NCBI GenBank assembly: GCA_001599295.1
Contig: BCGN01000010.1
Location: forward strand, 1-64,000
Length of the DNA stretch: 64,000 bases
DNA from: Sporopachydermia quercuum
Taxonomy: Eukaryota
Reading direction: 5' to 3'
Part shown: piece by piece, positions 1-25,562 of the stretch
Layout: each line of letters begins with the position of its first letter
Position numbering within the stretch: position 1 is the first letter of the stretch
The notes under the pieces: generated by a model
Told to the model about the DNA's origin: nothing
The model's input: the letters and a program-made list of their open reading frames with translations, nothing else
The model's database searches: none
Position numbers and translations under genes: made by a program

Positions 1-95
1 CCCAACTACCTCCCAACTACCTCCCAACTACCTCCCAACTACCTCCCAACTACCTCCCAACTACCTCCCAACTACCTCCCAACTACCTCCCAACT
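1..95. repeat. Telomeric repeat tract, 11-bp unit CCCAACTACCT (G-strand AGGTAGTTGGG), 8 full copies plus a 7-nt partial copy
   Basis: Perfect tandem repeat at the very start of the sequence, C-rich on the + strand as expected for a left chromosome end. Units start at 1, 12, 23 ... 89. Confidence 0.92.
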
Positions 96-6428: not shown

Positions 6429-6546
6429 TGTCGGAAGCTCCGATGCTGGTTTCAGTTCCGAGGGAAGAGATCATATCTAAGTTAAGGTTAAAGGTTAGGT
6501 TGCTTATCTCTCATCGGTTACCAAAAAAGGGGCCCGCCCGCTTATC
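6429..6546. promoter_or_regulatory. Oxidase promoter module: TGTCGG-AAGCT-CCGA (CGG-N5-CCG), TAAGTTAAGGTTAAAGGTTAGGTT, two GATAAG sites
   Basis: Motifs at 6429-6443, 6478-6501, 6503-6508 and 6541-6546. Confidence 0.6.
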
Positions 6547-7759
6547 TTGAAACCTTCCCAGTACAGAAATGTGATAGCTTTTGAGTTCAGAGGTGAGAAT
6601 CAAGAATATGCATATACGTGCAGATTGCTCACATATATTATTGATTATGTAATATTGTATTCACAAGAGCTGACATGCAATTAGTTGAACAAGTTGAATA
6701 GACCCGTACAGAGCAATAGTATCAACATACACAACCACGATTTACATGCTAGCAATGTCGCAGATATAAATAACTACGTCCGGCGTGATAGGGTACTATA
6801 TCGCACTTGAACTAGAGAATGTTATATAACGAAGTCTCTAAAACTACAGTTTTAAGTAATCATATCATTGTAAGCGGCGTATACGAGATCAGTAATATAT
6901 TGATCATTCGTGATTTTGTACTTTGACTGCTGTTCGTTCTGGAAACCATGGTCTTGATTACCTCACTCTTGAGGAACGCGATTCAGCGCAAGACTATTGC
7001 ATTATGTTTAGATCTTTGTGGTCCGTCTCGTCTTCTGGAAATACGGGGAGTGTACAAAAACATGGGCGATCCACAAGAGTATTCTTCCTGTCTGTGACAC
7101 ATTGCAAGTATCACTCAGAATATATATACAAGTTCTAATGCATATGGTACATCGTATGTGGTTGTAAGATGATTTGAAGTCCCAAAATGTAGGCCGTGAG
7201 ACCATTATTATGTCATTGGGCCACTAGTTATAACCCTTCCTTCGTAGATTATGGGTGCAAAGTGAGATGAGATGAGCTGAGTATGAAGTACATGTGGAAA
7301 CAGGAAGACTTTGGGAAAGAAAGAATGCGAAGCAATTGTATCAAAACATCATTATAAGGTTGCAAGAGTTAGTAATAAAGCGATTCAGATGTTTTATTAT
7401 CCAGTGCTATTGTCACTTGCTATTTCCTGGTCACTTACCAGGATTCTAGTCAATCGAATATGATAAATATGCAATATTCAAATCAAATAGCAATCGATAG
7501 GCACACTTCGCTGGTTTCTGCAGTTTGACGACACAGTATCCTGTGTTCTCATTGTTAAACCGTTGATCAATTGCCAAATTCATGGCCAAATGTTCAATTT
7601 CTCACCTATAACCTCTTGAATCGCCCTTGTCTACACTTCTACACTCTCCTTACGAAGGCAAACAAAACAAATAATTTTATTGTATCAACACTCAAATGAT
7701 AGCAACACCAGCTCGCGAACAAACACAGCATCAACACCAAAACCCCAATAAACACACCT

Positions 7760-10700: not shown

Positions 10701-11941
10701 GGCATAATCTTCCCGACATAAAGGTTAGCATCGGTGATGGTTAGTGGTCCTCCTTTACGGTAGCACGCGGGACCAGGATGGGCGGAAGCGGATTCCGGAC
10801 CCACCTTGAACACTCCGTTATCGTAGCTAAGGATTGAACCTCCCCCAGCCGCTACAGTGTTGATGTCAAGCTGGGGAACGGCAATCTCCACTCCAGCAGT
10901 AATACCGTGCAAGACGTAGTCGTAGTGTCCATCGTAACGGGAAACATCAGTAGAAGTACCACCCATATCAAAGCCAATAATTGGAGTTTTCTCCCTATGA
11001 TCATAACAGGTGCTGGCCTCGCCAACTACCCCGCCAGCTGGACCAGACAAAAGAGCCTTCAAGCCAGAAAACTCCGTCCAGGGTGCGAGCCCGCCATCAG
11101 ACTGCATGAACTCAACTCTCGTAGTTTGGTCAAATCCAGTAATGAAACCAGATCTAAATGATTCAATGTATCGTTTGATGATGGGAGTAAGATAGGCATC
11201 AACAACAACAGATTGGGCTCGGGGAATCGCCTTGATTGTAGGCATAAGCTCGTGGGAAGCAATGACAAACTCGAATCCCTGTTCCAAAGCCACTTCTTTC
11301 ACTTTTGCTTCGTGCACAGTATAATTATAACCATGAATAAGGCAGATTCCAAGCGATTCAATACCCTTAGCTTTCAAATCGGCTAGCTTAGTTCTTATAT
11401 CATCCACGTCAAGAGGAGTTATGACCCGGAACGTCTGTTTAGTATTTCCTCGTACATAACGAACTGGGTCTTTCTCGACGTAGAAATCGTAGGATATTTG
11501 ATCTGGATCCTCGCTATAGCCGGCACAAGTGACTCTTTCAATCACTTCGACCACTTCTTCGTAAATCACATCCGGTTTCACGATGTTCATGGCGAAAAGG
11601 TCCGGCCGGGTTTGATCGCCAATGGCAAGAAGATCTTTGAATCCTGCAGTCGTAAGAAGGGCACATCGGGCGCCTTTCCGTTCTAGCAAGGCGTTAGTGG
11701 CCACGGTAGTTCCCAGCCGAATGGAAGCTATGGGAGAGGTGTCTAAAAGGGAGTCTTTCGGTATTGAAGTCCTGTTTATTTTCTCCAGGACTCTTCTGAT
11801 GGCCTCAATATTGGCATCGCGATAATTACTGGGATCTACCGACAGAATCTTGAACACATAGTCCTCTTGGCCAGGAATGACCGCCAGGACATCTGTGAAT
11901 GTTCCACCTCGATCTATGGCAATAGTGACTCCAGATACCAT
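7760..11941 (-). CDS. OXP1: ATP-dependent 5-oxoprolinase-like enzyme (hydantoinase A+B fusion), divergent Oxp1 homolog
   Basis: IAIDRGGTFTD, RLGTTVATNALLERKG, LLSGPAGGVVG, FDMGGTSTDVSR, NIKERLDFSCALF, NAPHVPVHLGSM, HMTNTKITDPE, TPGGGGYG. ATG at 11941. Confidence 0.93.
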   Translation of the reverse strand: MVSGVTIAIDRGGTFTDVLAVIPGQEDYVFKILSVDPSNYRDANIEAIRRVLEKINRTSIPKDSLLDTSPIASIRLGTTVATNALLERKGARCALLTTAGFKDLLAIGDQTRPDLFAMNIVKPDVIYEEVVEVIERVTCAGYSEDPDQISYDFYVEKDPVRYVRGNTKQTFRVITPLDVDDIRTKLADLKAKGIESLGICLIHGYNYTVHEAKVKEVALEQGFEFVIASHELMPTIKAIPRAQSVVVDAYLTPIIKRYIESFRSGFITGFDQTTRVEFMQSDGGLAPWTEFSGLKALLSGPAGGVVGEASTCYDHREKTPIIGFDMGGTSTDVSRYDGHYDYVLHGITAGVEIAVPQLDINTVAAGGGSILSYDNGVFKVGPESASAHPGPACYRKGGPLTITDANLYVGKIMPEFFPSIFGKNEDQPLDYDIVDTKFQELTDRINKDNPGNYKTSYEVALGYLKVANYSMAKPIRAITEAKGYNMCKHNLASFGGAGGQNCVDVATILGMSRVIIHRYSSILSAYGIGLADIVKEGMSPCDEVYSEATRDQLLKLCAVKEENLVQQLVLQGVDLNTINADYYFNMGYRGSETKLMVLRNVEKDFIDLFNETHLREFSFIDPKRDVLVHDIRVRVTGNTGKLSERSPYEDLETVSIRTVGKGIKDMKVQPVWFPLKGSEKGQLCETYVYKIDALAVGDKVDGPAILLDSTQTIVVNPGWQAIVLPRHIVLDGTAMEAAATVAGMAIVTCETTSEDLPLASAPISASASEAGETSSLSSDPESLYVTESSQSSLDILSLSNTDAVSISLVVDPILLAVFQNRFMAIAEAMGITLQKIAISANIKERLDFSCALFDGDGNLTANAPHVPVHLGSMSHCIKYAKAHWEHDLHPGDILASNHPRAGGTHLPDITLISPVFIDGYLRFFTASRAHHAEIGGSAPGSCAADATELYQEGAQFKHWKIVSNGLFDYDGVNKFFVEDPAQYPGCSGTRNLNDNLSDLKAQIAANQKGVNLVKDLFQEYGTATVLFYMSNMKSTAELAVRKFLKHTAKQHRGKLPLRAREILDDGSVIQVTIQIDEETGEAIFDFEGSSDEAFSPCNAPIAITHACVIYSLRLMLAQDIPLNEGCLVPVKVIVPEGSILNPSEHAAVSAANSITAQRLNDTILKAFGLCAASTGSNNTITFGKGGIDPITKKMKPGFAMVETIGGGSGASRGHHGWSGVQCHMTNTKITDPEVLEKRYPVLLREFSLRTNSGGKGKWNGGDGLLRLYEFDEELSITLRSQRRVNCPYGLYGGGPGAMGENKLGRVKNGKVRWIHLPGFAQFMVKKGEMICIATPGGGGYGEDEKARKEREENMFDDYDEFNIATISNYSCYAVQPLAGGSFAAREVLANTSQ

Positions 11942-12582: not shown

Positions 12583-14384
12583 GGCGAAACTGAAAGTGGA
12601 ACCGCTGGAAGGACAATTAGGTTGTTACTGCAAGCAGTGCATGAAGTCTCTATAGTCTGCAGAAAGGGAAAATCACTAGAACTTTGATTAGAGTCTAAGA
12701 AAGGGTATTCTGGAATGCTTCGCTAAGAGCATGGCTGTGCGTTACTTGTTTATTGACAGTTAATTGATACGAGGTTGATTCATTTATGTAAAATAGCTCA
12801 AACTAAAGTAGGATTACACTATTCGAGTATCTAATAAATAGCTTAATGTAACTCAAATCGAACAATGTAATATTAACAATGCATTGAGATTACGAGTCAG
12901 CCTTTCTGGATTAAAATTGAGTTCTACTATAAATTAAAGTTAGTAATTTAGAGAAAAACTACATAATGTAGACAGATTGAACTTCAATGATGATTCAACA
13001 ATATGAGCAACTGTTATAGTAAAGACTACGGGTTATGCTTGAATAGATTCTGATTTCAACTAGAAGCCAAGTCTAGTTTCACAGCTTAGTATTTAATGAA
13101 CCACCTTCTGCTATAAGAAAAAATAATTTCAGGTTATGTCATTCAATTCACACTATCTGATTTGAATGGGAGAATTAGGTTTCCATGCTGAGTAGAAATT
13201 CTTGAAAAAGAAGTTGCATGAACTTAATTGCATTAGCGATCAAAAGATCAAATGGTGCTTAGAAAACAACAAAAGTGGACTACCTATATGGTTGTTCTTA
13301 GATCAGTGGAAAGCCCCAGTTAAAAAAAAAAAGTAATTGGGGTTGGAATTTGGGGAATCAAACTAATAGACAGGACCGACACTTGGTAAAGAAAGAAAGA
13401 CTAATCGTCATTATTTATTAAATAGGTACTGTATATAGTAACAGTTCAATGTAATATACAAGCCTAGTATGATGATACAATCGTTATGATTTGCATCTAG
13501 TAGTCTCATTTGGAGTGTACTATGTCTTATAAACCTACATTAATTCTCTCCAACTTCTACATAGTATTGAGTATCGTTTGACACTGACTTTCAGCTACTC
13601 CTAAGTTAAACCATTGTATGCGGTACCTTATTTTGGAGGTACTGAACAGCCAAAATCATCGAAATATCATTACCCGATGATGATAATGAACTGAAGAGAT
13701 ATCCAAGCATCTCACTTGAAGTTTGGGAAAAGAATTACATCTATTTATTCAAAGGGATAATACGCTCCAAGGAGTGATAATCAAAAAGTACGATGCTCTC
13801 ATTCCTTTCTCGATCATGAATAAAGTGAGTGCATCAAAATCTGTCAAGAGCACTGCTTGTTTAACAGCTGCCCTAGGATGAGATGGAGATGCTCAGAATA
13901 CAGGGAAAAGCCTCTATGAGAATTAGCAATATGCTTATTCTCATATGGTGACACTCTACTTACACTTCAGTTGTCAATGATCTTTCTTGCCAGGGTATCG
14001 GTTCTTGCTAAAGAGTCCCAGTATAATTTGAAGAATTAACCCAGGTGGTATTAGAAGGTGATTACTCCTATTTACGAAATACAACTATTTGTGAATCATT
14101 GAAAAACCATAAGTAGTACCATATAGACGTATTTTTATACCATGCAGCGTCAAGAATACGAAATCGAAGCTTCGTCATCCTACAACAAAAGCAATGCAGA
14201 GCTCAAATAAAACGGGACACAGTCCTCCAAAAAAAATAGAATTATCGTAAACGACTATCCGAAAATCAATATCGATAAGAATAAAATAGACAAAAAGAAA
14301 TACATAAAATAGACACTAATATTTAGGTACAATACTCAAGCAGCAGCTCAGTAGCCGCTCGTTGAAGACTGGAGATTCAACAGA

Positions 14385-15962
14385 TCACCAAACATATCTG
14401 AAATCAATGTTCTGTCTGTCGGTCAGGTCGAAAAACTCAGAGTTTTCCACCTTCACATATTCTCCATTTTGTTTCATCTTCTCAACCAGGGCATCCTTCT
14501 TCTTGTTTTCCCAAATGTTGTAGAAGGTCAAACCGACCAACAAGGCCAAACATCCGCTATAGAAAACAGGTACACAGATTTTGGCCGTCTTATAACTTGG
14601 GGCTTCGGAAGTGATGAAAGTTTGTGGTCCAACCGCAGATCCCACGCAGAATCCAACTAAATACATAGCATTGCACACAACTTTCTTGGTTCGGCCTGCA
14701 ACATTAGTTGATAAACCTGCCAAAGCTGTGATCATTGTTACAGGAGAAAAGCCAATCAAATAGAAGCCAGCAAGTTGAGCGTTCTTGTTTGAAGTAGCAA
14801 AGGATAACATACAACCAGCCATCAAAGTAACACACATTCCGAAAATCGACAAAATCATAGGATGTTTGATAAGCTTGTAGTAATTAAGAACTCCTAGTAA
14901 TCCTAGTCCGCAGAACTGAACAACACCCATTGGTGCCTTCATGATCAACGCTTTACCTACGTCGTATTTGAACGTTGTGTTCAAGAGAATTGCAGCGTAA
15001 GCAGTGATTCCAGAATTAGGAATATCCACGCAAATAGCAAGCATGAAATAAAACCAAGCTCTTGGCTCCAAAATTGCTTCCTTTGCTTGTTGCCATTTCC
15101 ATTTCTTAGAACCGTATCCTTGTTGATTGTCTCTGATCCGTTCAACTGCAAGCTTCTTTTCCCGGTCAGTGTACCACCAAGCTTTACTGGGAATATCGGG
15201 AATGAAGATCACCATGAGAAGAGCAAGGAAACAGGTGGCACATCCCAGAATTAAATAAAGAGCTCTCCAAGCCTTCAAGGCAAAATTTTCTTGATTCTTG
15301 TAAATGCCGTAAGCCATGCATGAACCAATGATATTAGCCAAACCAGTGAAACAGAAGTAGAAACAGGTTCTGCTAAACTGTTCGTCCTTATGGTAGAAAT
15401 TGTTACAAATTAGAGACAACCCTGTCAATAAAGGAGCCTCGAAAATACCCAGGAAAATACGACTGGCAAGTAAACTGCCATAGTTGAAAGTGGCAGCGTG
15501 AAGAGCGAGAACTAAACCCCACATAAACACGTAGAAACTAACCATTTTTGATAGTGGAAGCTTTTGTAGAGTCCAACTTCCAGGGAAAGCCCAAACAAGA
15601 TAACCAATAAAAAACAGAGTGGTAAGCAAACTGTACATTTGACCATGCATGGGACCATCGTCTACTTGAATACCCATGATTGCGGTATAAGATAATGCTG
15701 ATTTATCGAGAAATTGGAAGCCATAAGCAGAACAAACCAAAGGCAAAACAATGAGATCACACTTATTTCTCATTTTGATATTGGTTTCAGGATCAAGAAC
15801 TTCGTGGTTATCAGAAACATACTGAATAGCCATGTCAGTACTTTTTAAGGCCAGTATAGGAATGCTCCGATCGTCTGAAGATGGGACTTCGCTGGATGAA
15901 ACTGCTTCGATGTCCTTCACCATAATTTCGACATTTTCTTTTTTTTCAGAGATAGCCGACAT
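14385..15962 (-). CDS. MFS anion:cation symporter, allantoate/dipeptide permease (Dal5-like) family
   Basis: About 12 hydrophobic segments; FQFLDKSALSY, RIFLGIFEA, PDIPSKAWW, NVAGRTKK, GPQTF, and C-terminal DLTDRQNIDFRY typical of the Dal5 family. Confidence 0.92.
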   Translation of the reverse strand: MSAISEKKENVEIMVKDIEAVSSSEVPSSDDRSIPILALKSTDMAIQYVSDNHEVLDPETNIKMRNKCDLIVLPLVCSAYGFQFLDKSALSYTAIMGIQVDDGPMHGQMYSLLTTLFFIGYLVWAFPGSWTLQKLPLSKMVSFYVFMWGLVLALHAATFNYGSLLASRIFLGIFEAPLLTGLSLICNNFYHKDEQFSRTCFYFCFTGLANIIGSCMAYGIYKNQENFALKAWRALYLILGCATCFLALLMVIFIPDIPSKAWWYTDREKKLAVERIRDNQQGYGSKKWKWQQAKEAILEPRAWFYFMLAICVDIPNSGITAYAAILLNTTFKYDVGKALIMKAPMGVVQFCGLGLLGVLNYYKLIKHPMILSIFGMCVTLMAGCMLSFATSNKNAQLAGFYLIGFSPVTMITALAGLSTNVAGRTKKVVCNAMYLVGFCVGSAVGPQTFITSEAPSYKTAKICVPVFYSGCLALLVGLTFYNIWENKKKDALVEKMKQNGEYVKVENSEFFDLTDRQNIDFRYVW

Positions 15963-16593
15963 TGTTTCTTTCTTTTTTATTCATTACAATGTTATTATGC
16001 ACTTGGGGCGAATTGTCTTACTGCTAATGACTGACTGTGAACATGCCTATAGGTTAAAGAGAATTGTAAAATCAAACTACAACTGGACGAACACCAAGAA
16101 AAACAGGTGGATAGCTTTTCAAATAAATATGGGGAAATCAAACTAGGATTATACTTTGATGAGTCGTTGATAGAACAGAAGCAAGTTCTAGTGCTGAGTA
16201 GATTAACTAGGAATTGTATAATTCACTAGTGCAGTCAAGAGAGTGACATACAGCACAGTTAGTAGTAGTTTCCCTAGTTATTTGATTCTATCATCAAAAC
16301 GACGCTTGATAAGCATCATGTTTCTGAAGTAGGGAATGAAAGTCTGTTATCTGAGATATATGTGGAGATATTGTTTTCCTGCCGTTCTATCGGTTGAGAT
16401 TCTTTTAATCACCACTGAAGCTAACCCAGCTTTGCTGATTTTCGGGTTCAACAGTAGCAGAGAAGCGATCAGTATCGGGCTTCAGCGAAAGATATGAACT
16501 GAAACACAACATTGTTTTCAGAAATTTGTAGCTTTCAGCTATTTGAATCATTTTCGTAGGTATACATTAGAGATGAATCGTTAATCGTTGAGG

Positions 16594-16702
16594 CGGGATA
16601 TCCGACAGGAAAACGATCATGTCGGAGAGATTAGATTGGATCTTATCTGGATTGGGAAGTAGGAAAAGCAGGTACAGGATTCTCTTTAACCTTAACCTTA
16701 AC
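16594..16702. promoter_or_regulatory. Permease promoter module: CGG-GATAT-CCGACA, TGTCGGA, GATAAG, inverted (TAAGGT)n motif TTAACCTTAACCTTAAC
   Basis: Motifs at 16594-16607, 16620-16626, 16642-16647 and 16686-16702. Confidence 0.6.
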
Positions 16703-17702
16703 TGTAATCATAAGTATATTGGTTTGGAAGGATTTCCAGGATATAGAGAAAGGGCTTTGATTAATATGATGTTTATTGTTTGATTGTTATACAACGTAAT
16801 ATAGTGCTAAGTGTGTAGTATTGAAGAGTGACGTATTGCAAGTTGCGATGTTAGTTCCATTTTCTGTTTAATTGATGCTTATCTTATATGGTATTGCTTT
16901 ATGGAGAATTTAACTGTCCCCAAAGATTGTATGGAAGTCCATTTATGCAGGGAAGAGAAGAGTAGGTGGTTATTTAATGAAATTGCATTAGCTGATTGGA
17001 TGAGATGAAGAAAGGAATACTGCAAGAAAATATTATGTAGTTCAGAAGCATGGCAATGATTGTTTGAAGATTAATAGTTGTAGTCTTCAAAAAAACTATT
17101 TGATTATCACTTAATCGGCTCAGTTCGTCAGTATAAGCGAACAGCTAATAACTGATTGGAAAGACGCACCATTTTCTCGTTCTACTCCTATTACCAATTA
17201 TTATTTGATATTAATTATTGGTCGTATGTTATCATATGTCAGAAGCATGTTGATTTTTGTTTCATGGTTGCGTCGTAATGACTGAATAATTGACTTCCAT
17301 ACTACCTCGTTCAATCCCAATAAACTACTAGATCTCTCTCTTTTTCTCCTATGTTCAACTATTTGCACGAAGTTTTTATTACTTACAACAACTCTACTAG
17401 ACCTTCAATTGCTCCATCACTGTGGGACATGCATACTAAGGAGTCTGAGATATAGCAACTCTTATGCTAGTGCTGATAAGGCATGGATACTGACGGTCAC
17501 CACCAACGGTCACCAGCAAAATTTGTACTTGTGAAGGTATACACTTTCTGTGGGAGGATCTTCTACATTCAGGATCTCTAGGACGACATTTGAGAGTTTC
17601 TCCATATGAGATTTCCTTCGTTTTATACCTTTCTTCACGCCTATTTGTTATCTCCCGCGGTATCGTCGAGTACGCAATCTTCATTTGCTAAGGAAATGTC
17701 AA

Positions 17703-17910
17703 TCACGTGATAACATTGGACCTGTTTGTCCACTTACGAACTATGTCCTCCTGTGATTAAAGAATTTGTGTCACGCCCACTGAAACAAGCTCTGAAAAAA
17801 TCTCTGTGTCACTTGGACACTGTCATCTCTTCATGGCTTACTATTTAAAACCCAATACCCATACTTTTTCTCCTACTTCGTTCTTTTTCTTTTTCACAAT
17901 TAATATATAA
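17703..17910 (+). promoter_or_regulatory. Yeast-type promoter of the ABC-F gene: TCACGTGA E-box (Cbf1-type), pyrimidine tract, TATATAA
   Basis: TCACGTGA at 17703-17710, T-rich tract ~17865-17895, TATATAA at 17904-17910, about 200 bp before the ATG. Confidence 0.5.
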
Positions 17911-18103
17911 GGAAAAATCCTTTTGATCGCTAACTGAAGAACATTGTAAAGGAGATTCTATAAGTAATAGAGCACTTCCTAGTTATATTTGACATCTACT
18001 CATCTAGACATCGCTAGCAATTGACTGCGTAGTTTAGAGTAAGTGTTAGCTTAAGGTGTCATCAAGAAAGCTCTTTAGAGAATCGACATTATCGTCACAT
18101 TTT

Positions 18104-19867
18104 ATGCAAAGTAGAGAGAAAGGAAAGTCAAACAGGAAACCAAAGCATAAACAAAGTGACTCAAATGATGAACGAGAAGCTAAGCACCACGCCAATGGTT
18201 ATGGCATCTACTACCGAGAAGTAGTCACTGGAGAATCTCCAGAGATCGCTGTTGAGAAACTGGATTTATCATTAGATGGAAAGACCTTGTTTGAGGAACT
18301 CGATTTTGGCTTATTATTGGGTGAGAAGGTTACAATTGTTGGTGAGAATGGAGCTGGTAAAACAACGTTCTTCAAGCTTTTAAGTGGAGTAGGTAATTAT
18401 CATTATTCTGGTACTATTGAGATTGAAGGAAGAATCGGATTTCTCCCTCAGCATTTCGAAGATGTTGACGGTGATGGATTGAATATCAATGTATTATTGA
18501 GGTGTATTCATGACCCTAAAATCAATGAGTTTTTAGAACGCTCTTTGGTACCATTCTCTGCAGAATGGCTGCAGGAACTGAACTCTCTTGGTGGTTATGA
18601 GATTTTCAAACAGGTGAATCTTATTGGAATGAATTATGATCTACTTAGGAAACCTTTTAAATTGTTAAGCGGAGGAGAGAAGACAAAGACGTTATTATGT
18701 GCTCTTTATATTCTTGATCCTGACATCATTTTGTTGGATGAACCTACCAATCATCTTGATTCAAAAGGAATTGAATGGTTGGAAAGCTATTTGAAGAAGT
18801 ATAACGGTGGTATTATAATGGTGACCCATGATCGAAGTCTGATTAATGCTGTTTCTAATCGTATCTCTGAGCTTTCCCCTTATACAAAAAAATTCACTCA
18901 TTTCAGGGGTGGGTATAAGAATTATCTAGAGGAAGAAGAGAAAAGGAGAAGAAGATTAGCAGAAGAACGTCAACTTCAAGAGAAAGAATTAAAGAAGTTG
19001 AAACAAAAGTCTACCGAAACGAAGAGTAAAGTCCGAGGCAGAATCATCAGATCAGGTACGGATAGAGAGAAGGCACAATATAATCTCAAAGAACAAGCAG
19101 CTCAGAAGTCTAGTTCAAGAATTATCAACCAGTTAGCTGACAAGGTAGAACAGCTGTCTGACAACTTGGTTGAAGTGATCCCTGAAAGAACTCAAATCAC
19201 ATTTGATTTCTTTGATATCCCCGTTTCTAATCTTGCTCTTCTTTCACTTGTGGTGAACAATGTCTCGAAATCGTTCAAAGAACCCTTATTCAAGAATGTT
19301 TCTTTCACATTGGGCTCAGGTGATAGACTTATAGTTCAAGGTCCAAACGGTTCTGGTAAAAGTACTTTAATGAANATCATCATGAATCGGATTGACCCAG
19401 ATGAAGGTTCGGTGGGAATGAGTAATTATGCCAGGATTGGTTATTTGGATCAAGAGCAAGAAAACTTACCTTTGGATAAATCACCAGTGGCTTTACTGCA
19501 GGAAGATCCGTTGATCAAAGCTACAAAGCAATCGGCTATCAAAAATTTACGTAACTTTGGAATTTATACTTGGCATGATTTGAAAAGTGCTATGAAGATT
19601 TTGAGTGTTGGTTGTCGTCGTAAAGCTCAGTTATGTCAAATTGTTATGCGAAAGTGTTTGATCATTCTTTTAGATGAGCCAACGAATCATATTGATTTCC
19701 CAAGTCTAGAAGCTGTTGAAGAGGCTTTGTTGAGTTTCCCTGGTATTATTATTGCAGCAACTCACGATAGATACTTTACGGAAAAAGTGGGCACAAGGGT
19801 ATTGAATCTTTCCGATTTTAAACCAGATAGCCAACACGAAGACACTGGGACTTTGTCTGATGCTTAG
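18104..19867 (+). CDS. Bacterial-type ABC-F family ATPase (twin ABC domains, no TM segments; ribosome-associated/ARE-like), candidate horizontal transfer
   Basis: GENGAGKTT...LSGGE...LLDEPTNHLD...VTHDR; charged coiled linker; GPNGSGKST...LSVGC...LLDEPTNHID...ATHDR. No Gcn20/New1/eEF3-type extra domains. First ATG at 18104; one ambiguous base at 19375. Confidence 0.9.
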   Translation: MQSREKGKSNRKPKHKQSDSNDEREAKHHANGYGIYYREVVTGESPEIAVEKLDLSLDGKTLFEELDFGLLLGEKVTIVGENGAGKTTFFKLLSGVGNYHYSGTIEIEGRIGFLPQHFEDVDGDGLNINVLLRCIHDPKINEFLERSLVPFSAEWLQELNSLGGYEIFKQVNLIGMNYDLLRKPFKLLSGGEKTKTLLCALYILDPDIILLDEPTNHLDSKGIEWLESYLKKYNGGIIMVTHDRSLINAVSNRISELSPYTKKFTHFRGGYKNYLEEEEKRRRRLAEERQLQEKELKKLKQKSTETKSKVRGRIIRSGTDREKAQYNLKEQAAQKSSSRIINQLADKVEQLSDNLVEVIPERTQITFDFFDIPVSNLALLSLVVNNVSKSFKEPLFKNVSFTLGSGDRLIVQGPNGSGKSTLMXIIMNRIDPDEGSVGMSNYARIGYLDQEQENLPLDKSPVALLQEDPLIKATKQSAIKNLRNFGIYTWHDLKSAMKILSVGCRRKAQLCQIVMRKCLIILLDEPTNHIDFPSLEAVEEALLSFPGIIIAATHDRYFTEKVGTRVLNLSDFKPDSQHEDTGTLSDA

Positions 19868-21573
19868 TTGTGATTCTATGTATTTTCAACCGTACAAATA
19901 TGTCAAAGAAGTTTATATTGTTATGTATAACTGCAGATCAGAGATCCTTCTGTCTTGTTTAAATTAATTCGAATTTCAATTTCAAAATATTCGATTCATT
20001 GAAGTTGGTACTACCCCCAGCGCCAGTAGTGTTTGTTGAGTTCCCTTTCCTACCATGGCTTCCAATCATTCTATTTAACACCCGCAGGTCTTGAAAAAGC
20101 TCTATTCATTCAAGTCAAGTGTTTACCGTCAAAGCGTTTTATGTCCTTTTTATAGCATTAACTTATTGTATTATTCCTCTATTGTCAAGCGTTCCACCTA
20201 ATCGTAGTGTATGTCTACGTTAAACAAACTGGCAAACATAATGTTCAGAATCTCACTAAAGTCTTGTTCTAGTCTTCCTCATGTACCAGGAACAACTACC
20301 AGAACAGCAATCATAATGTAATATAAAAGACACTTAAAAGCTGGAACCATTGACAGAATTGCCGTTTAAATATTTAACTCTTTCATTTAACAGAATCCTT
20401 CTAAGAAGTAAACGAAAACTAATACAATTGTCAACTGACAACCCCCGAACATAAAGTAACTGTCTTAATTGCTTGCATCCTACCAACGAACACCAATACT
20501 CTCGTGCATCAAAATGCGAATTAATGAGTATTAAATACTTCACAATTAGTCGTCCACGGCAACTACATCATAAGCTTTATATTGTTATTCAGATAATGAT
20601 CGAAAAACTATCTCATCTAATCTCTTCATGCAACTCCTTTATTCCTATGTGAACGGACCAGTATCAGTCATCAAAGCAACAATCCTTCCTTCAACATTGG
20701 AATCTGAATCTAACAGATTGATCTCATCTCTTATCTCTAATTTTACCTGTAAATGCAAATATTTTTTCTTCTTCTTAGTAAGACCGATAACCAATGACAA
20801 TCCATTTTCAAAACACTGTGCTATTCCCGATTAATACTCTCATCGCCCACTCGCTATTAAACTATCGGGTTTTGATGGACTTGTTTAGGAAAACGAACTT
20901 TAAGTATAAATTAAGGAACTTTATGAACTTTAGGATAAAGTTTATTCAAGTTGATTAGGCTTTGCTTCTCTTGCAAGTAGTCTCCTGAAATGGTATTTAA
21001 ATGGGAACATGGAGAAGGAATGGGAGAAATTAACGAGAAAGAACGAATGACTAGAATATTTAGATATTGATGGGATAGAACGCTCATTTTACAATTGTTT
21101 CTATCTACTTACTTGTAATTTATAGAATAAGAGCTTTAATATGTTTCAAAACTATCTTAATTCTCTCTATTTTACTCAATTTAATAATCTGTCAATTCAT
21201 GTAATGGCATATAATTAATGATATAATTAATTACATTTAGACCGGTAAAGCTGCTGGATGAAATCTTAAATTAAAACCTTGGTCTTAGATAAAACCCAAA
21301 GCTAAACCTAAACTGCAACCAGAAACTCAAACTCAACAATTCGCTCTGTAAGCATCGTCTCCGCCATTTTCCGGTTCATTTCACTCTTTATTTATTGAAT
21401 CATACTCACAGACTCCTTGCTTGCTTGTATTTTAGATGCTTAATTTTAGAAGTACGTGTGATCTCGATTAGTTCATTTCAGAGATCGCAGCCTATGTATT
21501 TCTCGCCTCATACTATACATATCATGTCATTTCTATGTCATTGCCATGTTATAGACATATGGTCTACAATTAG

Positions 21574-22560
21574 GTAAGTAAGTGTATGATCTTCAAATAG
21601 ATATGTAAGCAACTCACTCTTCAGCTAACTCAACAGCCGACCTACAGCTTACTTGCCTAGCCATATATATTTATAAATGAGTACCCATCAAGAGATTGCA
21701 ACTATAAGAAGTTCTTGGAACAGTTCAACAATAACACTCACCATCATTGAGAAACCTATTATCTTCTCCCGTTTTTATCCTCTTCCTTTACTGCTTTCTC
21801 CCATTACACTTTCGGTTCATGTGGCTGCTGAAGAATGTCCTGATATCTATTGTCCTAAAACTAATGAGGTACTTGGAAACTGATAGAAATCCCTTTAAAA
21901 TAAGCCAAAACAGATACTGCAGTTAGCAACAGTCTAATTACTTGTTTCAGCGGAGCCTGAAGTAATAAGCTATTTTCACTCAAAATTTATTATTCGAGTG
22001 CTTTCATGAACGATGCCAGTGATTTAATGCTATCAAATACTATCATATGCTCTCAATGGCCGTGGCAAAAAGACAACCGATGGAGTTGTTTGAATTCAAT
22101 CTTCCCTATTAAAATAGGTAAGATCTAGTAATAGCAATGGAGAATATACTTTGAGTGGATATGATATCTAATTTTAGGTCAGCTTCAAGCAAGAATAAAC
22201 CAACCCCTAATTGTTCGTCATGGACTCTGGGAACACGGACACCGTTATCATTGCCAGTGTCGCAGTTGCATAAAAGTCTTTTCTGACTTGTTTTACAAGA
22301 ATCTGGGAAGCACCTGAGATATTCGAAAGTTGCGGGTGTTTTTTTTGGCAGAGTTGAACTATTTGGAGATTTAGCATTTAAGATTCAGTTTCTATTAACT
22401 GTTTTCCTACTATTGAACTCATTAGGGGAAGCTGCGATGAATATCAACAACTCAATTAACAGCCAGCAGTTAATTCACATTCTAAGAATTGGAGGCGCGA
22501 TAACATTGAATCAGCTATTCGATAGTTACTACCATTCTGATTATCTATTGCTGTAACAAT
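21574..22560 (+). pseudogene. Probable decayed fungal globin (YNL234w-like) with a 5' intron-like element
   Basis: Ordered fragments across frameshifts and stops: MSTHQEIATIRSSW (21677), ASVAVA/KVFSDLFYKNL (22253-22305), VAGV/LAELNYLE (22329-22368), IEL/LGEAAM (22412-22439), FTF*ELEAR (22474-22500). GTAAGT..GCTAAC..CAG at 21574-21647. Confidence 0.5.
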
Positions 22561-23408
22561 AAGAACTAGTAACAGTGATGCTGTGAATTTAAATAGTAAT
22601 ACGATAAGATATTTAAGTCTATCGAACTGCATATTAGAGTCTGTTCATGTTTATATTCACATTGATGTTGATATTTCTATTTATATCGAAATCAATAGTA
22701 ATAAAACTAGGAGCTGATATTGATTATTCGTGGAATACAATCATTAGTATAGTGACTTCTTTCATGTTGAGTGTTGGAAAATACGAGATCTGACAACTAT
22801 CACTTTGAACAGAATATGAAGGAATTGAGATTCCGGAAGCTTGGAAGCTTAGAAAACTCGGGACGTTAAGATCGGAATCGGAACTGAATGGATCCTATCT
22901 GAAGAATCTGTTCCCAATTAATGAAGTTATAGCACTAAATGTACCACTACAACGATGGGATAGAGTTTCAGAACAAGTTCGGAATAAAATACATCTCTTG
23001 CTGATATTGATCAATGGAGAACCGATCAATTCCGATCTGATATCCGCTCTTATTGCATTTTTCCGAAACTTTAATTTACTGAGTCTAGCCAACTATCATT
23101 TCCGTTTCAACAAACCAGTCACGTGGCTCAGGTAGAATAAGAAAAATCATTATTTTTGTGTTATTCAATTTCATATCTTAGGATTTCAGGTATGGTCTCC
23201 GATATTTTTGTATAGTCTCCTTTTTCCTTGTCTCCAATTTTGCAATTGTTTCCGCTCCCTCTAAATCATTTCCTTTTTCTTCTCTCTTTCCTGCATTTGT
23301 TCTGCTCCTTCTATCTTCAACAAAACGACAGAAAAAGCGATAATAAACAACTAAGCCACTTTCGTTATTAATAGGGCACTGCGAAATGCTGAGATTGAGC
23401 CACAGAAA

Positions 23409-25562
23409 ATGTCAAAAACACTACAATCGGCCTCCAGGGCTTGTCTCAATTGCCGCAATAAGCATGCCAAATGCGACGGAACTCAACCATGTAAACGGTG
23501 CCTCAGTTCGGGTATGGAATGCGTCTTTGTGAGATCCCGGCGGGGAGGCGCTCGAATCCGATTTCAGAAGAACCCGGATGCATCCGGGATGATGGTCTCG
23601 GTTCTACGGACGGCTTCTTTCCAGAGTTCTCGGCCACAATTGAGTCAGCCAAGGCAGCCACTTAGCACGGAACAAATACCAAGCCACGGGAACAATGAGT
23701 CTTACTTCCAAATAAGTCATCAGCCTGTTGAAGTGGGAAGCGTTGGCACAGTTATGAAGGATAACTCATCTACAGCTGGTTCCGAGATGGATCAATCTTC
23801 TCCGTTGACTACGGCATCTACTGGCACATCGGCTACGTCTTTGAGTTCCGGTTCCGAGCCTAGCGGGATCAGCAACGGCCGTGTTGGTGGCACAGCGCCA
23901 TTGCCTTTTATTGAGGACTGTAACAATTCCCCGAGATTTAGTTCCTCTGCTAATAATATTAATGATTCAGCCCCAGCTCCCATAGTCAACTCCCCGTATA
24001 ATGCCATATTTGATACTCAATTTAACCATCGGCAAAACCCAGTTGAGTCATTCTACGCCGCATATCGCCAAATCCATGGATACTGTTTATCTTTTCAGGC
24101 GTTTGCGGCTGTAAATAAGCCGCTGGATTCATTTCCCGATTTGTATCTAACTTTTCGCTTACTTTACCTACATAGGACAGAACAAGTTCCCAGTCAGGGC
24201 TACGATTTGTGGCTCAAGGACGAACTACGCCACTTGAAATCGGCTATTGATGCTGCGCCACAGGATTTATTCAAAATTCATAGCTGCGCTACCGCAGCTA
24301 TCATCACCCACATGTGTTTCCACTTTGATCTATCCTCCGAGTTGTTATCTCAAGCGGTAGAACTAACTCTGATGTTCCGAGAAAGCCCAGCGTTATTGTG
24401 GCAATCTTCCCTAAATAGGTTATCCTCATTTCCTCTTCAGGAACTACAGTCGTCGTTCCTAGCCACTCTTTTCCAACTGAGGCTTATTGATAGCGTTTTA
24501 AGTATGACGGCTATGCAACGGTCAAGGCTGAATGAGGGTGATAGCGCGAACGATAACATAATAAATACCGGAATTAATCTCGGAATAACCGACGAGTTAT
24601 CCGATATTACCTCCGATCGGTCTTCTGTGTCCTTGGGAATTGAAACATGTAAATTCGTTGATTTCTGTGTTTCTANTGTTCAATCCTCTTTCCCCACTTT
24701 TGACCTCACTCCCGCTAAACAATCGGAAGCGTTTGCCAAATACGCCTCAATCAAAATGCAACTAGAAGAACAGGTATTCCGGTCCGTTCGGATAAACGCC
24801 ACCACCTGTTTTTCTTTAGCTTGGGTGGCTCATAGTTTAATATTTCTCTTGCTGCCCCACAGTTCCCTTTCTAGACAACTAGCCGAGAGATCATTTAACT
24901 GCCGCAAAGTCACATCCGAATCCGAACCCTTAATCAGAAACGCTAGCTCTAATCCCGATCCCATTCCNAATTCTAACTCTAACTCTAACTCTACTGCACC
25001 ACAGGAAGATAAAACAACAAATTACATTCTAAATGCGGCAAGAACTATTCCCAAAATCCTAATTGAGACTGTGGCGCTTGGAACGCTAAACGATCTTTCC
25101 CCGCTTATGGTTTGTCCCTTAATCTCGGCCTCTTTTGTACACATAAATGTTGTTATTGCCTACTGTTTGCGGACTGTTAGCCTCGGTCCGTTGGTGATTA
25201 CCTTGGAAACTGTGCTGGATAATTTATGTTTGATGTTTAAAGTTCTCAAAATGTACGGAAGAATGTATCCGTTTGCGGGGGCAGCTGTGGCTAAGTTCGG
25301 GGGAACAATTAGCAGCTTATTGCCGGGTTTAGCGAGCCGCTTAGGCATAGACGAGGCGCAGTATTCAATGACACATTCTCTTGATTTGGGTATATCATTA
25401 CAAACGCAAGATGAACCACAGTTTTCTTATCTTCAACAGGAAACGCCGCCACAGGATCTTCCGCAAATGGGAGAAATGTTCCACGTCAATGAAACCTTAC
25501 TAGCAGCTACAGATTTAAGTTTGTTTGGATTCTTCCGTGATTTCATGCATGGCGAAGCTTAA
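23409..25562 (+). CDS. Zn(II)2Cys6 transcription factor
   Basis: RACLNCRNKHAKCDGTQPCKRCLSSGMECVFVRSRRGG, followed by a Ser-rich linker and a divergent helical domain. Confidence 0.88.
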   Translation: MSKTLQSASRACLNCRNKHAKCDGTQPCKRCLSSGMECVFVRSRRGGARIRFQKNPDASGMMVSVLRTASFQSSRPQLSQPRQPLSTEQIPSHGNNESYFQISHQPVEVGSVGTVMKDNSSTAGSEMDQSSPLTTASTGTSATSLSSGSEPSGISNGRVGGTAPLPFIEDCNNSPRFSSSANNINDSAPAPIVNSPYNAIFDTQFNHRQNPVESFYAAYRQIHGYCLSFQAFAAVNKPLDSFPDLYLTFRLLYLHRTEQVPSQGYDLWLKDELRHLKSAIDAAPQDLFKIHSCATAAIITHMCFHFDLSSELLSQAVELTLMFRESPALLWQSSLNRLSSFPLQELQSSFLATLFQLRLIDSVLSMTAMQRSRLNEGDSANDNIINTGINLGITDELSDITSDRSSVSLGIETCKFVDFCVSXVQSSFPTFDLTPAKQSEAFAKYASIKMQLEEQVFRSVRINATTCFSLAWVAHSLIFLLLPHSSLSRQLAERSFNCRKVTSESEPLIRNASSNPDPIXNSNSNSNSTAPQEDKTTNYILNAARTIPKILIETVALGTLNDLSPLMVCPLISASFVHINVVIAYCLRTVSLGPLVITLETVLDNLCLMFKVLKMYGRMYPFAGAAVAKFGGTISSLLPGLASRLGIDEAQYSMTHSLDLGISLQTQDEPQFSYLQQETPPQDLPQMGEMFHVNETLLAATDLSLFGFFRDFMHGEA

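What the first reader, a model, noticed from the sequence alone, without database searches (positions are those of the whole stretch)
17703..19867. Intact bacterial-type ABC-F ribosome ATPase in a yeast subtelomeric region (candidate horizontal transfer)
Seen: an intronless twin-ABC protein with no TM segments, a long inter-ABC linker (GRIIRSGTDREKAQYNLKEQAAQKSSSRII), a degenerate second signature LSVGC and both catalytic DEPTNH motifs intact. It lies between clearly fungal genes behind a TCACGTGA + TATATAA promoter. Known: yeast ABC-Fs are Gcn20, Arb1, New1 and eEF3. Bacterial ABC-Fs with extended linkers include antibiotic-resistance (ARE) and stall-rescue factors that reach toward the peptidyl transferase centre. 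Inference: a domesticated bacterial gene that may protect mitochondrial or cytosolic ribosomes from antibiotics or resolve stalls.
Basis: partly seen in the sequence, partly recalled or inferred. Interest (0 to 1): 0.82.

Follow-up and report, generated by a model that had tools for sequence, protein, structure and literature searches.

The report
Bacterial-type ribosome ATPase gene in yeast
A budding yeast carries, about 18 kb from a chromosome end, an intact gene for a bacterial-type ribosome-binding ATPase of the kind that protects bacterial ribosomes from antibiotics, and the same gene turns up in a scattered set of yeasts, amoebae and one other fungus.

Summary
The ORF is 18104-19867 (+), 587 aa; 17703 is only an upstream E-box. 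It encodes a soluble twin-ABC ABC-F protein with all catalytic motifs, a degenerate second signature (LSVGC) and a helical-hairpin linker 30 residues longer than E. coli EttA's, the size of extension published for antibiotic-resistance ABC-Fs. It lies 18 kb from a telomere repeat, between fungal genes, with host-like codon usage, and contigs from two studies link it to both flanks.

It is not private to this yeast. It belongs to a well-supported eukaryotic clade (some Saccharomycetaceae, Komagataella, Heterolobosea, Conidiobolus; 58-72% identity). That clade is nested inside a small bacterial family found in host-associated bacteria: Silvanigrellaceae (sister), a Rickettsiales symbiont, Rhabdochlamydia and Mycoplasmataceae. 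One further member sits in an NRPS-PKS operon.

Bacterial origin by horizontal transfer is well supported. The transfer looks old and was followed by inheritance or spread among yeasts. Function is untested. No mitochondrial presequence is evident, so I favour action on cytosolic ribosomes. A 2019 survey lists an extra bacterial-type "YdiF" ABC-F in Komagataella and Naegleria in a supplementary table, without comment. No eukaryotic ABCF1/2/3 sequences could be put in my trees.

The parts
1..95 (.). Telomere-type tandem repeat, CCCAACTACCT x 8.6, at the very start of the window
   Evidence: 100% matches. Contigs of runs X1 and X2 end at about window position 67.
14385..15962 (-). Left neighbour: MFS transporter gene
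   Evidence: Pfam MFS_1 4.3e-28; host-like codon usage.
17703..17710 (+). TCACGTGA E-box, 394 bp upstream of the ATG. A consensus match only.
17904..17910 (+). TATATAA, 194 bp upstream of the ATG, with no ATG in between. A consensus match only.
   Evidence: read directly.
18104..19867 (+). ABC-F coding sequence, 587 aa plus stop, uninterrupted
   Evidence: AlphaFold2 model with mean pLDDT 91.1 and pTM 0.85.
18236..18913 (+). NBD1 (aa 45-270): Walker A GENGAGKT at 80, Q-loop LPQH at 114, signature LSGGEKTK at 188, Walker B LLDEPTNH at 210 (E213), H-loop VTHDR at 240. The region between Q-loop and signature is 15 residues shorter than in EttA.
18914..19243 (+). Inter-domain linker (aa 271-380): helix 271-311, tip loop 312-320, helix 321-353, then an extended segment. 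The tip motif D-R-[DE]-K..N....QK is conserved.
19244..19819 (+). NBD2 (aa 381-572): Walker A GPNGSGKS at 413, Q-loop LDQEQ at 448, degenerate signature LSVGCRRK at 500, Walker B at 522 (E525), H-loop ATHDR at 552
19375..19375 (+). Ambiguous base N (codon 424 AAN, K or N), one of 8 N in the window
18971..18975 (+). CAACT shared with the telomere repeat. This is the site of a telomere-repeat junction inside the ORF in one public sample (a terminal-deletion variant).
   Evidence: tables 2, 7 and 8.
23409..25562 (+). Right neighbour: fungal Zn2Cys6 transcription-factor gene
   Evidence: Zn_clus 9.3e-10.

Best explanation
The gene encodes a soluble ABC-F ATPase of bacterial descent that is now a resident, host-adapted nuclear gene of this budding yeast.

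Shown:
- It has two complete ATPase sites and a long helical-hairpin linker, with no membrane or targeting segment.
- It belongs to a eukaryotic clade nested within a bacterial ABC-F family carried by host-associated bacteria.

Inferred from what is established for ABC-F proteins (EttA, VmlR, Vga, Lsa, Msr, Arb1):
- In the ATP-bound closed state it occupies the ribosomal E site.
- It pushes its hairpin along the P-site tRNA acceptor arm toward the peptidyl-transferase centre.
- It is released on ATP hydrolysis.

Why I think it protects or rescues ribosomes:
- The hairpin has the roughly 30-residue extension typical of antibiotic-resistance ABC-Fs.
- The hairpin tip is as conserved as the ATPase cores.
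- One bacterial relative sits inside an NRPS-PKS cluster.
So I think it most likely displaces small-molecule inhibitors bound at or near the peptidyl-transferase centre, or clears the stalls they cause.

No mitochondrial presequence is evident, so the likelier target is the cytosolic 80S ribosome.

My odds, step by step: bacterial origin about 0.85; E-site ribosome factor about 0.7; protection against natural translation inhibitors about 0.35.
For: Architecture and motifs. Foldseek's 25 top-ranked listed hits are ABC-F structures, 20 of them ribosome-bound (PoxtA, EttA, VmlR2, YbiT, LsaA, Arb1).

Linker:
- It is 30 residues longer than named E. coli EttA.
- Murina et al. 2019 (passage read) state that ARE1-5 linkers are extended by about 30 aa on average relative to EttA.
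- Across 99 aligned sequences the family median is 109, against 80-88 for EttA-like and YbiT-like representatives.
- Mean conservation of the tip is 0.77, the same as both NBDs, among 45 eukaryotic members.

Family profile against PDB sequences: VmlR 360/349 bits, VgaA-LC 328, YbiT 312, EttA 295, human ABCF1 272, Arb1 260, eEF3 210.

Phylogeny (quick IQ-TREE, SH-aLRT only):
- The eukaryotic clade has support 100.
- Its sister is Silvanigrellaceae MAG plus two others, support 99-100.
- Further out are a complete Ca. Megaira polyxenophila genome, Rhabdochlamydia and Mycoplasmataceae MAGs, and the operon-embedded P0268.
- All of these lie inside a clade of about 550-aa 'producer-like' ABC-Fs that share the LS[VIL]G signature 2.

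Bacterial context of P0268: GC about 30%, overlapping same-strand ORFs in the order NRPS-PKS, PKS-thioesterase, ABC-F, isochorismatase, amine oxidase, PPTase.

Residency:
- GC3 is 0.337 and the RSCU correlation with the other 16 ORFs is 0.77.
- One X1 contig of 51,245 b spans 13000-24000 with no differences. X2/X3 contigs join the gene to each flank.

No presequence: 5 acidic residues in the first 25, N-terminus pLDDT below 50, and the Heterolobosea and Conidiobolus copies have no N-terminal extension at all.

Independent classification: Murina Table S1 lists an extra 'YdiF' (the bacterial catch-all class) in K. pastoris and three in N. gruberi, and none in L. thermotolerans or K. lactis.
Against: - No functional, expression or localisation data exist.
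- The protein falls below the curated cut-off of every named ARE model: Vga 243/725, producer 238/800, Msr 237/680, Sal 228/725, Lsa 211/750. The only near-hit, NF000355 (372/380), is a catch-all that 66 of 76 ABC-F relatives scanned pass.
- Long linkers are not exclusive to resistance factors.
- No eukaryotic ABCF1/2/3/5 sequence is in my trees.
- Human ABCF1 scores only about 90 bits below VmlR against the family profile.
- The immediate bacterial sisters are known only from short MAG or metagenome contigs of 2.5-8 kb.
- Tree supports are SH-aLRT from quick searches. The careful search did not finish.
- Absence of a presequence was judged by simple counts, not by a trained predictor.
- In one public sample about half of the copies lack the gene's 5' half, so it is dispensable at least under those conditions.
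Confidence: 0.6

Rival explanations
1. Same protein and same origin, but it is a housekeeping-type translation factor. It would resolve intrinsic stalls (difficult peptide sequences, empty E site at initiation), as EttA, Uup, YfmR and YbiT do. It would not protect against inhibitors.
For: - Most ABC-F subfamilies have no known resistance role (Murina 2019, passages read).
- The protein passes no named ARE model.
- The family occurs in reduced genomes of intracellular bacteria, where housekeeping genes dominate.
Against: - The distribution is patchy and the location subtelomeric. The gene is missing from S. cerevisiae, L. thermotolerans and K. lactis, which carry only the standard ABC-F classes in Murina Table S1.
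- The terminal-deletion variant argues against a core role.
- The linker has ARE1-5 length.
- One relative sits inside a biosynthetic cluster.
Confidence: 0.25
2. The protein is imported into mitochondria and acts on the bacterial-type mitoribosome. It would protect respiration from antibacterial translation inhibitors made by neighbouring microbes.
For: - Bacterial-type ABC-Fs are built for 70S-type ribosomes.
- Several bacterial relatives carry basic, acid-free N-terminal extensions. The Ca. Megaira clade is an example.
Against: - The window protein has 5 acidic residues in its first 25, and the 6 other short yeast-clade copies listed have 2-4.
- The Heterolobosea and Conidiobolus copies listed have 4-7 residues before NBD1, so no N-terminal extension.
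- The N-terminus is predicted disordered.
Confidence: 0.12
3. There was no horizontal transfer. This is an ancient eukaryotic ABC-F paralogue, perhaps of endosymbiont origin, inherited vertically and lost from most lineages.
For: - The eukaryotic copies form one clade (support 100).
- Yeast copies group together with depths compatible with vertical descent: window to Komagataella is 66% here, against 80% for ARO2.
Against: - This would need losses in nearly all fungi and most eukaryotes.
- Conidiobolus groups with Heterolobosea, not with the yeasts.
- The clade is nested several nodes deep among bacterial sequences from at least four bacterial lineages.
- 5 of 10 named yeast copies have locus tags near the start of a chromosome's numbering. 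Reading that as 'near the end' is my inference from the tag numbers.
Confidence: 0.08
4. Artefact: bacterial contamination or a chimeric assembly joined a bacterial gene to yeast DNA.
For: - X2 and X3 contigs break inside the gene at 18971-19000.
Against: - The two X2/X3 contigs overlap by 30 bases, as at a graph branch.
- The branch is explained by a 53-base record that joins telomere repeat to 18971.
- X1 spans the whole 11 kb in one contig with 0 differences.
- Codon usage is host-like.
- Orthologues exist in at least 9 other named yeast assemblies.
Confidence: 0.01

Closest known systems
VmlR (ExpZ) and VmlR2 of Bacillus, and VgaA-LC: ARE-type ABC-F ribosome-protection proteins
   Same: - They are the best sequence matches among solved structures (235 bits with the single sequence; 360/349/328 bits with the family profile).
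- Same twin-NBD plus helical-hairpin fold.
- Linker extended to about the same degree relative to EttA.
   Different: - Only about 26-27% identity.
- Below all curated ARE cut-offs.
- The window protein keeps a longer insert in NBD1 than VmlR. I infer this from alignment offsets.
- Nuclear eukaryotic gene. No resistance phenotype is known.
TlrC/CarA/OleB/SrmB 'producer' ABC-Fs (NF000171) and LmrC-type cluster-encoded ABC-Fs
   Same: - The nearest large bacterial group in my trees has this model as its second-best hit.
- It shares the degenerate LS[VIL]G signature 2 and the D-x-D-K hairpin-tip motif.
- One family member (P0268) is cluster-embedded, like these.
   Different: - The window scores 238 bits against a cut-off of 800.
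- The labelled representatives are themselves below that cut-off.
- The LmrC paper was seen only as a search listing and abstract.
'YdiF' class of Murina et al. 2019, including the extra YdiF entries for Komagataella pastoris GS115 and Naegleria gruberi in their Table S1
   Same: - This is very probably the same gene family. These are two of the named species in which I find the clade, and the other yeasts in that table have only the standard classes.
   Different: - YdiF is defined there as a paraphyletic catch-all.
- The eukaryotic entries are not discussed in the passages I read.
- I could not match accessions, because the supplementary file was cut when stored.
EttA (E. coli)
   Same: - ABC-F fold, E-site factor, conserved ATPase motifs.
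   Different: - The linker is 30 residues longer and the NBD1 insert 15 residues shorter than in EttA.
- 258 bits against a cut-off of 599.
- Signature 2 is canonical LSGGE in EttA.
Native yeast ABC-Fs: Arb1 (ABCF2), Gcn20 (ABCF3), New1, eEF3
   Same: - Soluble twin-NBD ribosome-associated ATPases of the same superfamily branch.
   Different: - Much more distant: Arb1 152 bits, New1 118 bits and eEF3 114 bits with the single sequence; 260, 196 and 210 bits with the profile.
- Gcn20 was not tested: no Gcn20 chain appears in those PDB hit lists.
- No HEAT or chromodomain, and no ABCF3-type N-terminal domain.
Bacterial-like eukaryotic ABC-Fs of algae (mEttA, cpYdiF, algUup, algAF1, algEttA)
   Same: - Precedent for bacterial-type ABC-Fs encoded in eukaryotic nuclei (Murina 2019, passages read).
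   Different: - Those are algal or amoebozoan, attributed to endosymbionts, and mostly carry organelle-targeting peptides.
- This clade is fungal and heterolobosean, shows no evident targeting peptide, and is of a different subfamily.

Membership tests
ABC-F family (soluble twin-NBD ribosome ATPases) | Two ABC ATPase domains in one chain, no transmembrane domain | tested here: met
   Pfam ABC_tran twice. Maximum hydropathy 1.49. AlphaFold2 model.
ABC-F family (soluble twin-NBD ribosome ATPases) | Alpha-helical hairpin linker (PtIM/ARD) between the two NBDs | tested here: met
   Helices 271-311 and 321-353 with loop 312-320, pLDDT mostly above 90. The top Foldseek hits are all ABC-F structures. 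Pfam's ABC_tran_Xtn model itself does not hit.
ABC-F family (soluble twin-NBD ribosome ATPases) | Binds the ribosomal E site in the ATP state | not testable with these tools
   Inferred from homology only.
ARE ABC-F (antibiotic-resistance ABC-Fs, ARE1-5 type) | Linker extended by about 30 aa relative to EttA | tested here: met
   128 against 98 residues between the shared anchors. Published figure from Murina 2019.
ARE ABC-F (antibiotic-resistance ABC-Fs, ARE1-5 type) | Scores above the curated cut-off of a named ARE model (Vga, Msr, Lsa, Sal, producer, OptrA, CplR) | tested here: not met
   The best is 243 bits against 725.
ARE ABC-F (antibiotic-resistance ABC-Fs, ARE1-5 type) | Confers resistance to a ribosome-targeting compound | not testable with these tools
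   No data.
NCBIfam NF000355 ribosomal protection-like ABC-F | Score of at least 380 bits | tested here: not met
   372 bits. The model is a catch-all that 66 of 76 ABC-F relatives scanned pass, so the near-miss says little either way.
Eukaryotic ABCF1/ABCF2/ABCF3 | Nests within those clades, or has its closest relatives among them | tested here: inconclusive
   No reference sequences could be fetched for a tree. Indirectly against membership: relatives at 37-50% identity are bacterial; the profile scores ABCF1 at 272 and Arb1 at 260, against VmlR at 360; and the published table calls the Komagataella and Naegleria extras YdiF.
EttA | Curated cut-off, short PtIM, long arm | tested here: not met
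   258 bits against 599. Linker 30 residues longer, arm region 15 shorter.
Horizontally acquired gene of bacterial origin | Nested within bacterial sequences in a phylogeny | tested here: met
   Secure bacterial anchors are the P0268 operon and a 1.5-Mb Ca. Megaira contig. The immediate sisters rest on MAG labels only.
Horizontally acquired gene of bacterial origin | Physically linked to host genes, not contamination | tested here: met
   contigs of two studies; fungal flanks; host-like codon usage.
Horizontally acquired gene of bacterial origin | Patchy distribution in the recipient group | tested here: met
   Only named records could be placed taxonomically.

The most novel reading that the evidence does not exclude
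The family may be a eukaryote-directed ribosome factor from the start.

- In host-associated bacteria, 22 of 31 non-eukaryotic members carry N-terminal extensions of 30 or more residues. By my reading, about 9 look like Sec signal peptides and about 8 like mitochondrial presequences. None of the 6 outgroup ABC-Fs has such an extension.
- A ribosome ATPase has no use outside a cytoplasm. These proteins could therefore be exported into host cells to act on host cytosolic or mitochondrial ribosomes.
- Protists and fungi would then have captured a gene already fitted to eukaryotic ribosomes.
- They would use it, without the export signal, as the first known target-protection factor for the 80S ribosome against natural translation poisons. 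From there it would have spread between soil eukaryotes.
Probability: 0.12. Interest if true: 0.88.

Novelty: new variant of a known kind. Interest (0 to 1): 0.6.

Why it matters
Target protection by ABC-F proteins is a major route of antibiotic resistance in bacteria. No equivalent is known for the eukaryotic cytosolic ribosome, which many natural toxins hit at the same centre.

This clade offers an intact, conserved protein with an ARE-length linker and no evident organelle signal. It is present in tractable yeasts (Komagataella, Lachancea, Saccharomyces uvarum) and absent from S. cerevisiae. The question can therefore be tested directly by deletion and by transfer into S. cerevisiae.

It is also a clean case of bacterium-to-eukaryote transfer. 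The nearest bacterial relatives are symbionts and pathogens of protists and arthropods. The eukaryotic spread (yeasts, Heterolobosea, Conidiobolus) cannot be vertical.

If the protein instead proves to be an ordinary stall-rescue factor, it is still a new, unnamed ABC-F subfamily, currently filed under the 'YdiF' catch-all.

Tried and rejected
- Own genome: none is held, so copy number and other ABC-Fs of this yeast are unknown.
- Exact look-up of 8 window proteins: 0 of 8 are in the collection.
- Scan notes: nothing relevant.
- Expression: no RNA holder was listed for the stretch, so nothing can be said.
- GTDB genome scan: the best of the 80 loci kept is 31% identical.
- Plasmids: 25 records, all below 30% identity. 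No close plasmid relative.
- NCBIfam NF000355: I first read it as an ARE call and dropped that after one search showed it is a catch-all.
- Atlas neighbours (Bacillota ribosomal-protection-like clusters): kept only as a lead.
- MTS-like N-termini of intermediate relatives: I first took them as a sign that those sequences are eukaryotic mitochondrial proteins. I rejected this because the same kind of extension occurs in a complete Ca. Megaira genome and next to an operon.
- Careful IQ-TREE run with bootstraps: not finished after 411 s. Only quick trees are reported.
- Eukaryotic ABCF1/2/3/5 reference sequences: no tool could deliver them. The control genomes are all prokaryotic.
- Upstream exon: a tblastn with the N-terminal domain shared by Komagataella and P0002 found nothing upstream of the ORF.
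- Literature: five searches listed no paper whose title or abstract describes this eukaryotic clade.
- Yeast-to-yeast transfer within Saccharomycetaceae: Lachancea copies are not monophyletic, but supports are mixed and identities (72-87%) fit vertical descent too, so I make no claim.
Full report
**1. What is at the coordinates**

- The only long ORF in the interval runs from the ATG at 18104 to the stop at 19865-19867 on the + strand, 587 aa.
- Upstream of 18104 the frame is closed by several stops.
- That 8-mer occurs 3 times in the window against 0.61 expected, and 4 of 100 shuffles reach 3. It is a consensus match, not evidence of regulation.
- TATATAA lies at 17904-17910, and I saw no ATG between it and the start codon (read).
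- One base is ambiguous: N at 19375, codon 424 AAN, K or N. Both kinds of residue occur at that column in relatives.

**2. The protein**

- Pfam finds two ABC_tran domains.
- All catalytic motifs are in place in both halves: Walker A at 80 and 413, Q-loops at 114 and 448, Walker B LLDEPTNH at 210 and 522, H-loops at 240 and 552.
- The first signature is canonical (LSGGEKTK, 188). The second is LSVGCRRK (500).
- The degenerate second signature is not a private defect. It reads LS[VI]GC[RK]RK in 43 of 45 eukaryotic members. It is a close variant in all but one of the 22 bacterial relatives scanned, and the 11 'producer-like' outgroup sequences carry LSxGQ forms (9 of them LS[VIL]GQ). All 6 EttA-like and YbiT-like representatives, and most generic ones listed, keep LSGGE.
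- There is no hydrophobic segment; the maximum 19-residue hydropathy is 1.49.
- An AlphaFold2 model built on a 99-sequence alignment is confident: mean pLDDT 91.1, pTM 0.85. It shows two NBDs joined by a helical hairpin, with helix 271-311, loop 312-320 and helix 321-353. The first roughly 25 and last 8 residues are disordered.
- Foldseek's 25 top-ranked listed hits are ABC-F proteins, 20 of them ribosome-bound. They include PoxtA, EttA, VmlR2, YbiT, LsaA, VgaL and Arb1.

**3. The linker**

- I measured between two anchors invariant in the seven-sequence alignment (Y271 and S400). The linker is 128 residues here and 126-127 in four family members. It is 98 in E. coli K-12 EttA (annotated gene). 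It is 101 in a Bacillus protein that one search identifies as YbiT-type.
- In the larger alignment the family median is 109, against 80-88 for EttA-like and YbiT-like representatives and 106 for the 'producer-like' group.
- Murina et al. 2019 (passage read) state that ARE1-5 linkers are about 30 aa longer than EttA's on average. They also note that extension is not universal among resistance factors.
- The extra residues sit at the hairpin tip and carry a conserved motif (D-R-[DE]-K..N....QK).
- Among 45 eukaryotic members the tip is as conserved as the NBDs (0.77 against 0.77).
- The NBD1 insert between Q-loop and signature is 15 residues shorter than in EttA.

**4. It is a real, resident yeast gene**

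- The window starts with 8.6 perfect copies of CCCAACTACCT. The gene is therefore about 18 kb from a chromosome end.
- Its neighbours are a fungal MFS gene and a Zn2Cys6 gene. Further right lie Myo3/5-, ARO2-, SRP102-, CCA1-, DCD1- and PSD2-like genes.
- Its GC3 (0.337) and codon usage (RSCU correlation 0.77 with the other 16 ORFs) are typical of the core genes to its right.
- Three public runs from two studies hold the stretch; either may be the source of the assembly.
  - In X1 a single 51,245-base contig covers 13000-24000 with no difference.
  - In X2 and X3 (one sample), one contig joins the left flank to the gene's first half and another joins the second half to the right flank. The two overlap by 30 bases.
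- ARO2 is 79-81% identical to Cyberlindnera, Geotrichum and Komagataella and 74-78% identical to Saccharomycetaceae. The organism is therefore a budding yeast outside Saccharomycetaceae. I did not try to name it further.

**5. Relatives**

- The word-indexed search found about 50 full-length or partial proteins at 58-72% identity.
- All named ones are eukaryotic: S. uvarum, five Lachancea species (one partial), Torulaspora globosa (two assemblies), Zygotorulaspora mrakii, Komagataella pastoris, Naegleria gruberi (two copies), N. lovaniensis, Willaertia magna, Acrasis kona and Conidiobolus coronatus.
- Next come a Silvanigrellaceae MAG protein (50%) and metagenomic proteins at 39-47%. After those there is a drop to the general ABC-F mass at about 30-35%.
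- The exhaustive representative search agrees: one 50%-identity cluster represents the full-length eukaryotic copies, with three further rows for fragments. About ten further full-length clusters lie at 37-44%.
- A profile of the intermediate group added named bacterial members: Candidatus Megaira ('Megaera') polyxenophila on a 1.5-Mb contig, a Rhabdochlamydia MAG, a Mycoplasmataceae MAG and an unnamed NCBI record on a 141-kb contig. They are 37-47% identical to the window protein.
- One relative (P0268, 46%) could be fetched with its context.
  - It sits on a contig of about 30% GC, in a run of overlapping same-strand ORFs: NRPS-PKS, PKS-thioesterase, the ABC-F, isochorismatase, amine oxidase and phosphopantetheinyl transferase.
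  - An MFS gene lies on the other strand upstream, and a Tn3-type transposase fragment lies downstream.
  - This arrangement is plainly bacterial and resembles the setting of cluster-encoded self-resistance ABC-Fs.

**6. Trees**

All three are IQ-TREE quick searches under LG+C20+F+G4 with SH-aLRT support only. A careful run did not finish.

- With 99 rows, 54 rows and 56 rows including the newly named bacteria, the eukaryotic sequences form one clade (support 100).
- Their sister is the Silvanigrellaceae MAG with one or two unnamed sequences (99-100).
- Outside that lie the P0268 operon sequence, the Ca. Megaira clade, the Alphaproteobacteria-MAG clade, the Rhabdochlamydia clade and the Mycoplasmataceae clade.
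- The whole family (99-100) is nested among about 550-aa ABC-Fs. Their second-best NCBIfam model is the TlrC/CarA/OleB/SrmB producer type, and all are below its cut-off. The family is separate from EttA-, YbiT- and Uup-like representatives.
- Within the eukaryotes, the window groups with K. pastoris, two unnamed sequences and an 18-row Saccharomycetaceae clade (96-99).
- Heterolobosea, Acrasis and Conidiobolus form another clade (97-98).
- Rows left out of the trees: family members shorter than 480 aa, unnamed members at least 90% identical to a kept one, and all but a sample of the outgroup representatives.

**7. What the trees do and do not show**

- They show that the yeast gene descends from a bacterial ABC-F lineage. 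The eukaryotic clade lies several nodes deep among sequences with two secure bacterial anchors (an operon and a complete symbiont genome).
- They do not identify the donor. The immediate sisters rest on MAG labels and contigs of 2.5-8 kb.
Indirect evidence is against that criterion:
  - The family profile scores VmlR at 360/349 bits and VgaA-LC at 328, against human ABCF1 at 272, Arb1 at 260, eEF3 at 210 and New1 at 196.
  - Murina et al. 2019, Table S1 (supplement searched; the file was cut when stored) lists K. pastoris GS115 as 'YdiF, New1, ABCF2, ABCF3, eEF3'. N. gruberi is listed as 'YdiF, YdiF, YdiF, ABCF7, ABCF2'. L. thermotolerans, K. lactis and A. gossypii have only the four standard classes.
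  - YdiF is their catch-all for unclassifiable bacterial-type ABC-Fs.
  - That these YdiF entries are this family is my inference. I could not match accessions.

**8. History**

- Identities among Saccharomycetaceae copies are 72-87%. The window protein is 62-69% identical to them and 66% to Komagataella. Yeast copies are 57-65% identical to Heterolobosea. Conidiobolus is closer to Heterolobosea (69%) than to yeasts (57-62%).
- Together with host-like codon usage, this points to an old acquisition, not a recent one.
- It does not decide between two options: one entry into an early budding yeast followed by many losses, or passage between yeasts through subtelomeres.
- The grouping of a zygomycete with amoeboflagellates cannot be vertical.

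**9. Function**

Nothing here measures function. Four observations lean toward a target-protection or inhibitor-linked rescue role over a housekeeping one:

- the ARE-length linker with a constrained tip;
- the two intact ATPase sites;
- the cluster-embedded relative;
- the patchy, subtelomeric, dispensable character of the gene.

On location:

- The N-terminus has 5 acidic residues in its first 25 in the window protein, and 2-4 in the 6 other short yeast-clade copies listed.
- There is no extension at all in Heterolobosea and Conidiobolus.
- This argues against mitochondrial import and so for the cytosolic ribosome. It rests on simple counts, not on a trained predictor.

**10. Prior knowledge**

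- Five full-text searches listed no paper whose title or abstract describes this clade in fungi or Heterolobosea.
- The only trace I found is the uncommented 'YdiF' entries in the 2019 supplementary table.
- Large fungal HGT surveys turned up in the listings (for example PMC11708051, seen as listing and abstract only). They may include the gene in supplements that I did not open.

Noticed in passing
window 18971-19000 (runs X2 and X3): In one public sample the contigs break inside the ABC-F ORF. A 53-base record joins 23 bases of telomere repeat to position 18971 through a shared CAACT. The left 19-kb contig has about half the depth of the right one (50.8 against 101.8; 15.4 against 23.6). The junction record has depth 31.4 and 12.8. 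This reads as a terminal deletion healed by telomere addition in about half of the chromosome copies, which cuts the gene in two.
   Followed up: partly
window 1249-11941: The three telomere-proximal genes (Zn2Cys6 factor, FAD oxidoreductase, hydantoinase/oxoprolinase) have GC 0.49-0.53 and GC3 0.51-0.59. Their codon usage correlates poorly with the rest of the window (r -0.16 to 0.47). The other genes have GC 0.38-0.46. The block is compositionally foreign-looking.
   Followed up: no
window 1-95: Chromosome-end repeat of an 11-base unit, CCCAACTACCT, 8.6 perfect copies.
   Followed up: partly
L081 1923-14694: A low-GC bacterial metagenome contig carries a compact hybrid NRPS-PKS cluster. The family's ABC-F sits between the thioesterase-ending PKS and the tailoring genes. 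A Tn3-type transposase fragment lies at 14963-15400.
   Followed up: partly
Proteins P0052, P0122, P0121, P0131, P0393, P0395 (signal-peptide-like); P0401, P0399, P0400, P0404, P0128, P0126, P0059 (presequence-like): 22 of 31 non-eukaryotic family members have N-terminal extensions of 30 or more residues before NBD1. None of the 6 outgroup ABC-Fs does. Some extensions are strongly hydrophobic, like Sec signals. Those of the Ca. Megaira clade are basic, acid-free and look like mitochondrial presequences. Start codons were not checked, except that the L081 ORF abuts the upstream gene.
   Followed up: partly
Proteins P0002 (713 aa) and P0022 (K. pastoris, 723 aa): These two yeast-clade members share an extra N-terminal domain of about 150 residues (31% identity over 120 aa, E 2e-12). 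It is absent from the window gene and its upstream DNA. P0002 begins with a hydrophobic segment.
   Followed up: partly
Proteins P0122 and P0270: Two nearly identical proteins (same 90% cluster, branch lengths 0 and 0.01) are labelled as coming from an Alphaproteobacteria MAG and a Flavobacteriales MAG. This points to a binning error or a very recent transfer.
   Followed up: no
Proteins P0060 and P0129: These two family members, which pair in the trees, lack the hairpin tip. Their linkers are among the shortest in the family (minimum 77 residues against a median of about 109), so the extension has been lost secondarily in one branch.
   Followed up: no
window 19375, 24676, 24968, 26737, 41532, 43892, 45118, 56697: Eight isolated N bases are scattered through the window, several of them inside ORFs. 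Their cause is unknown.
   Followed up: no
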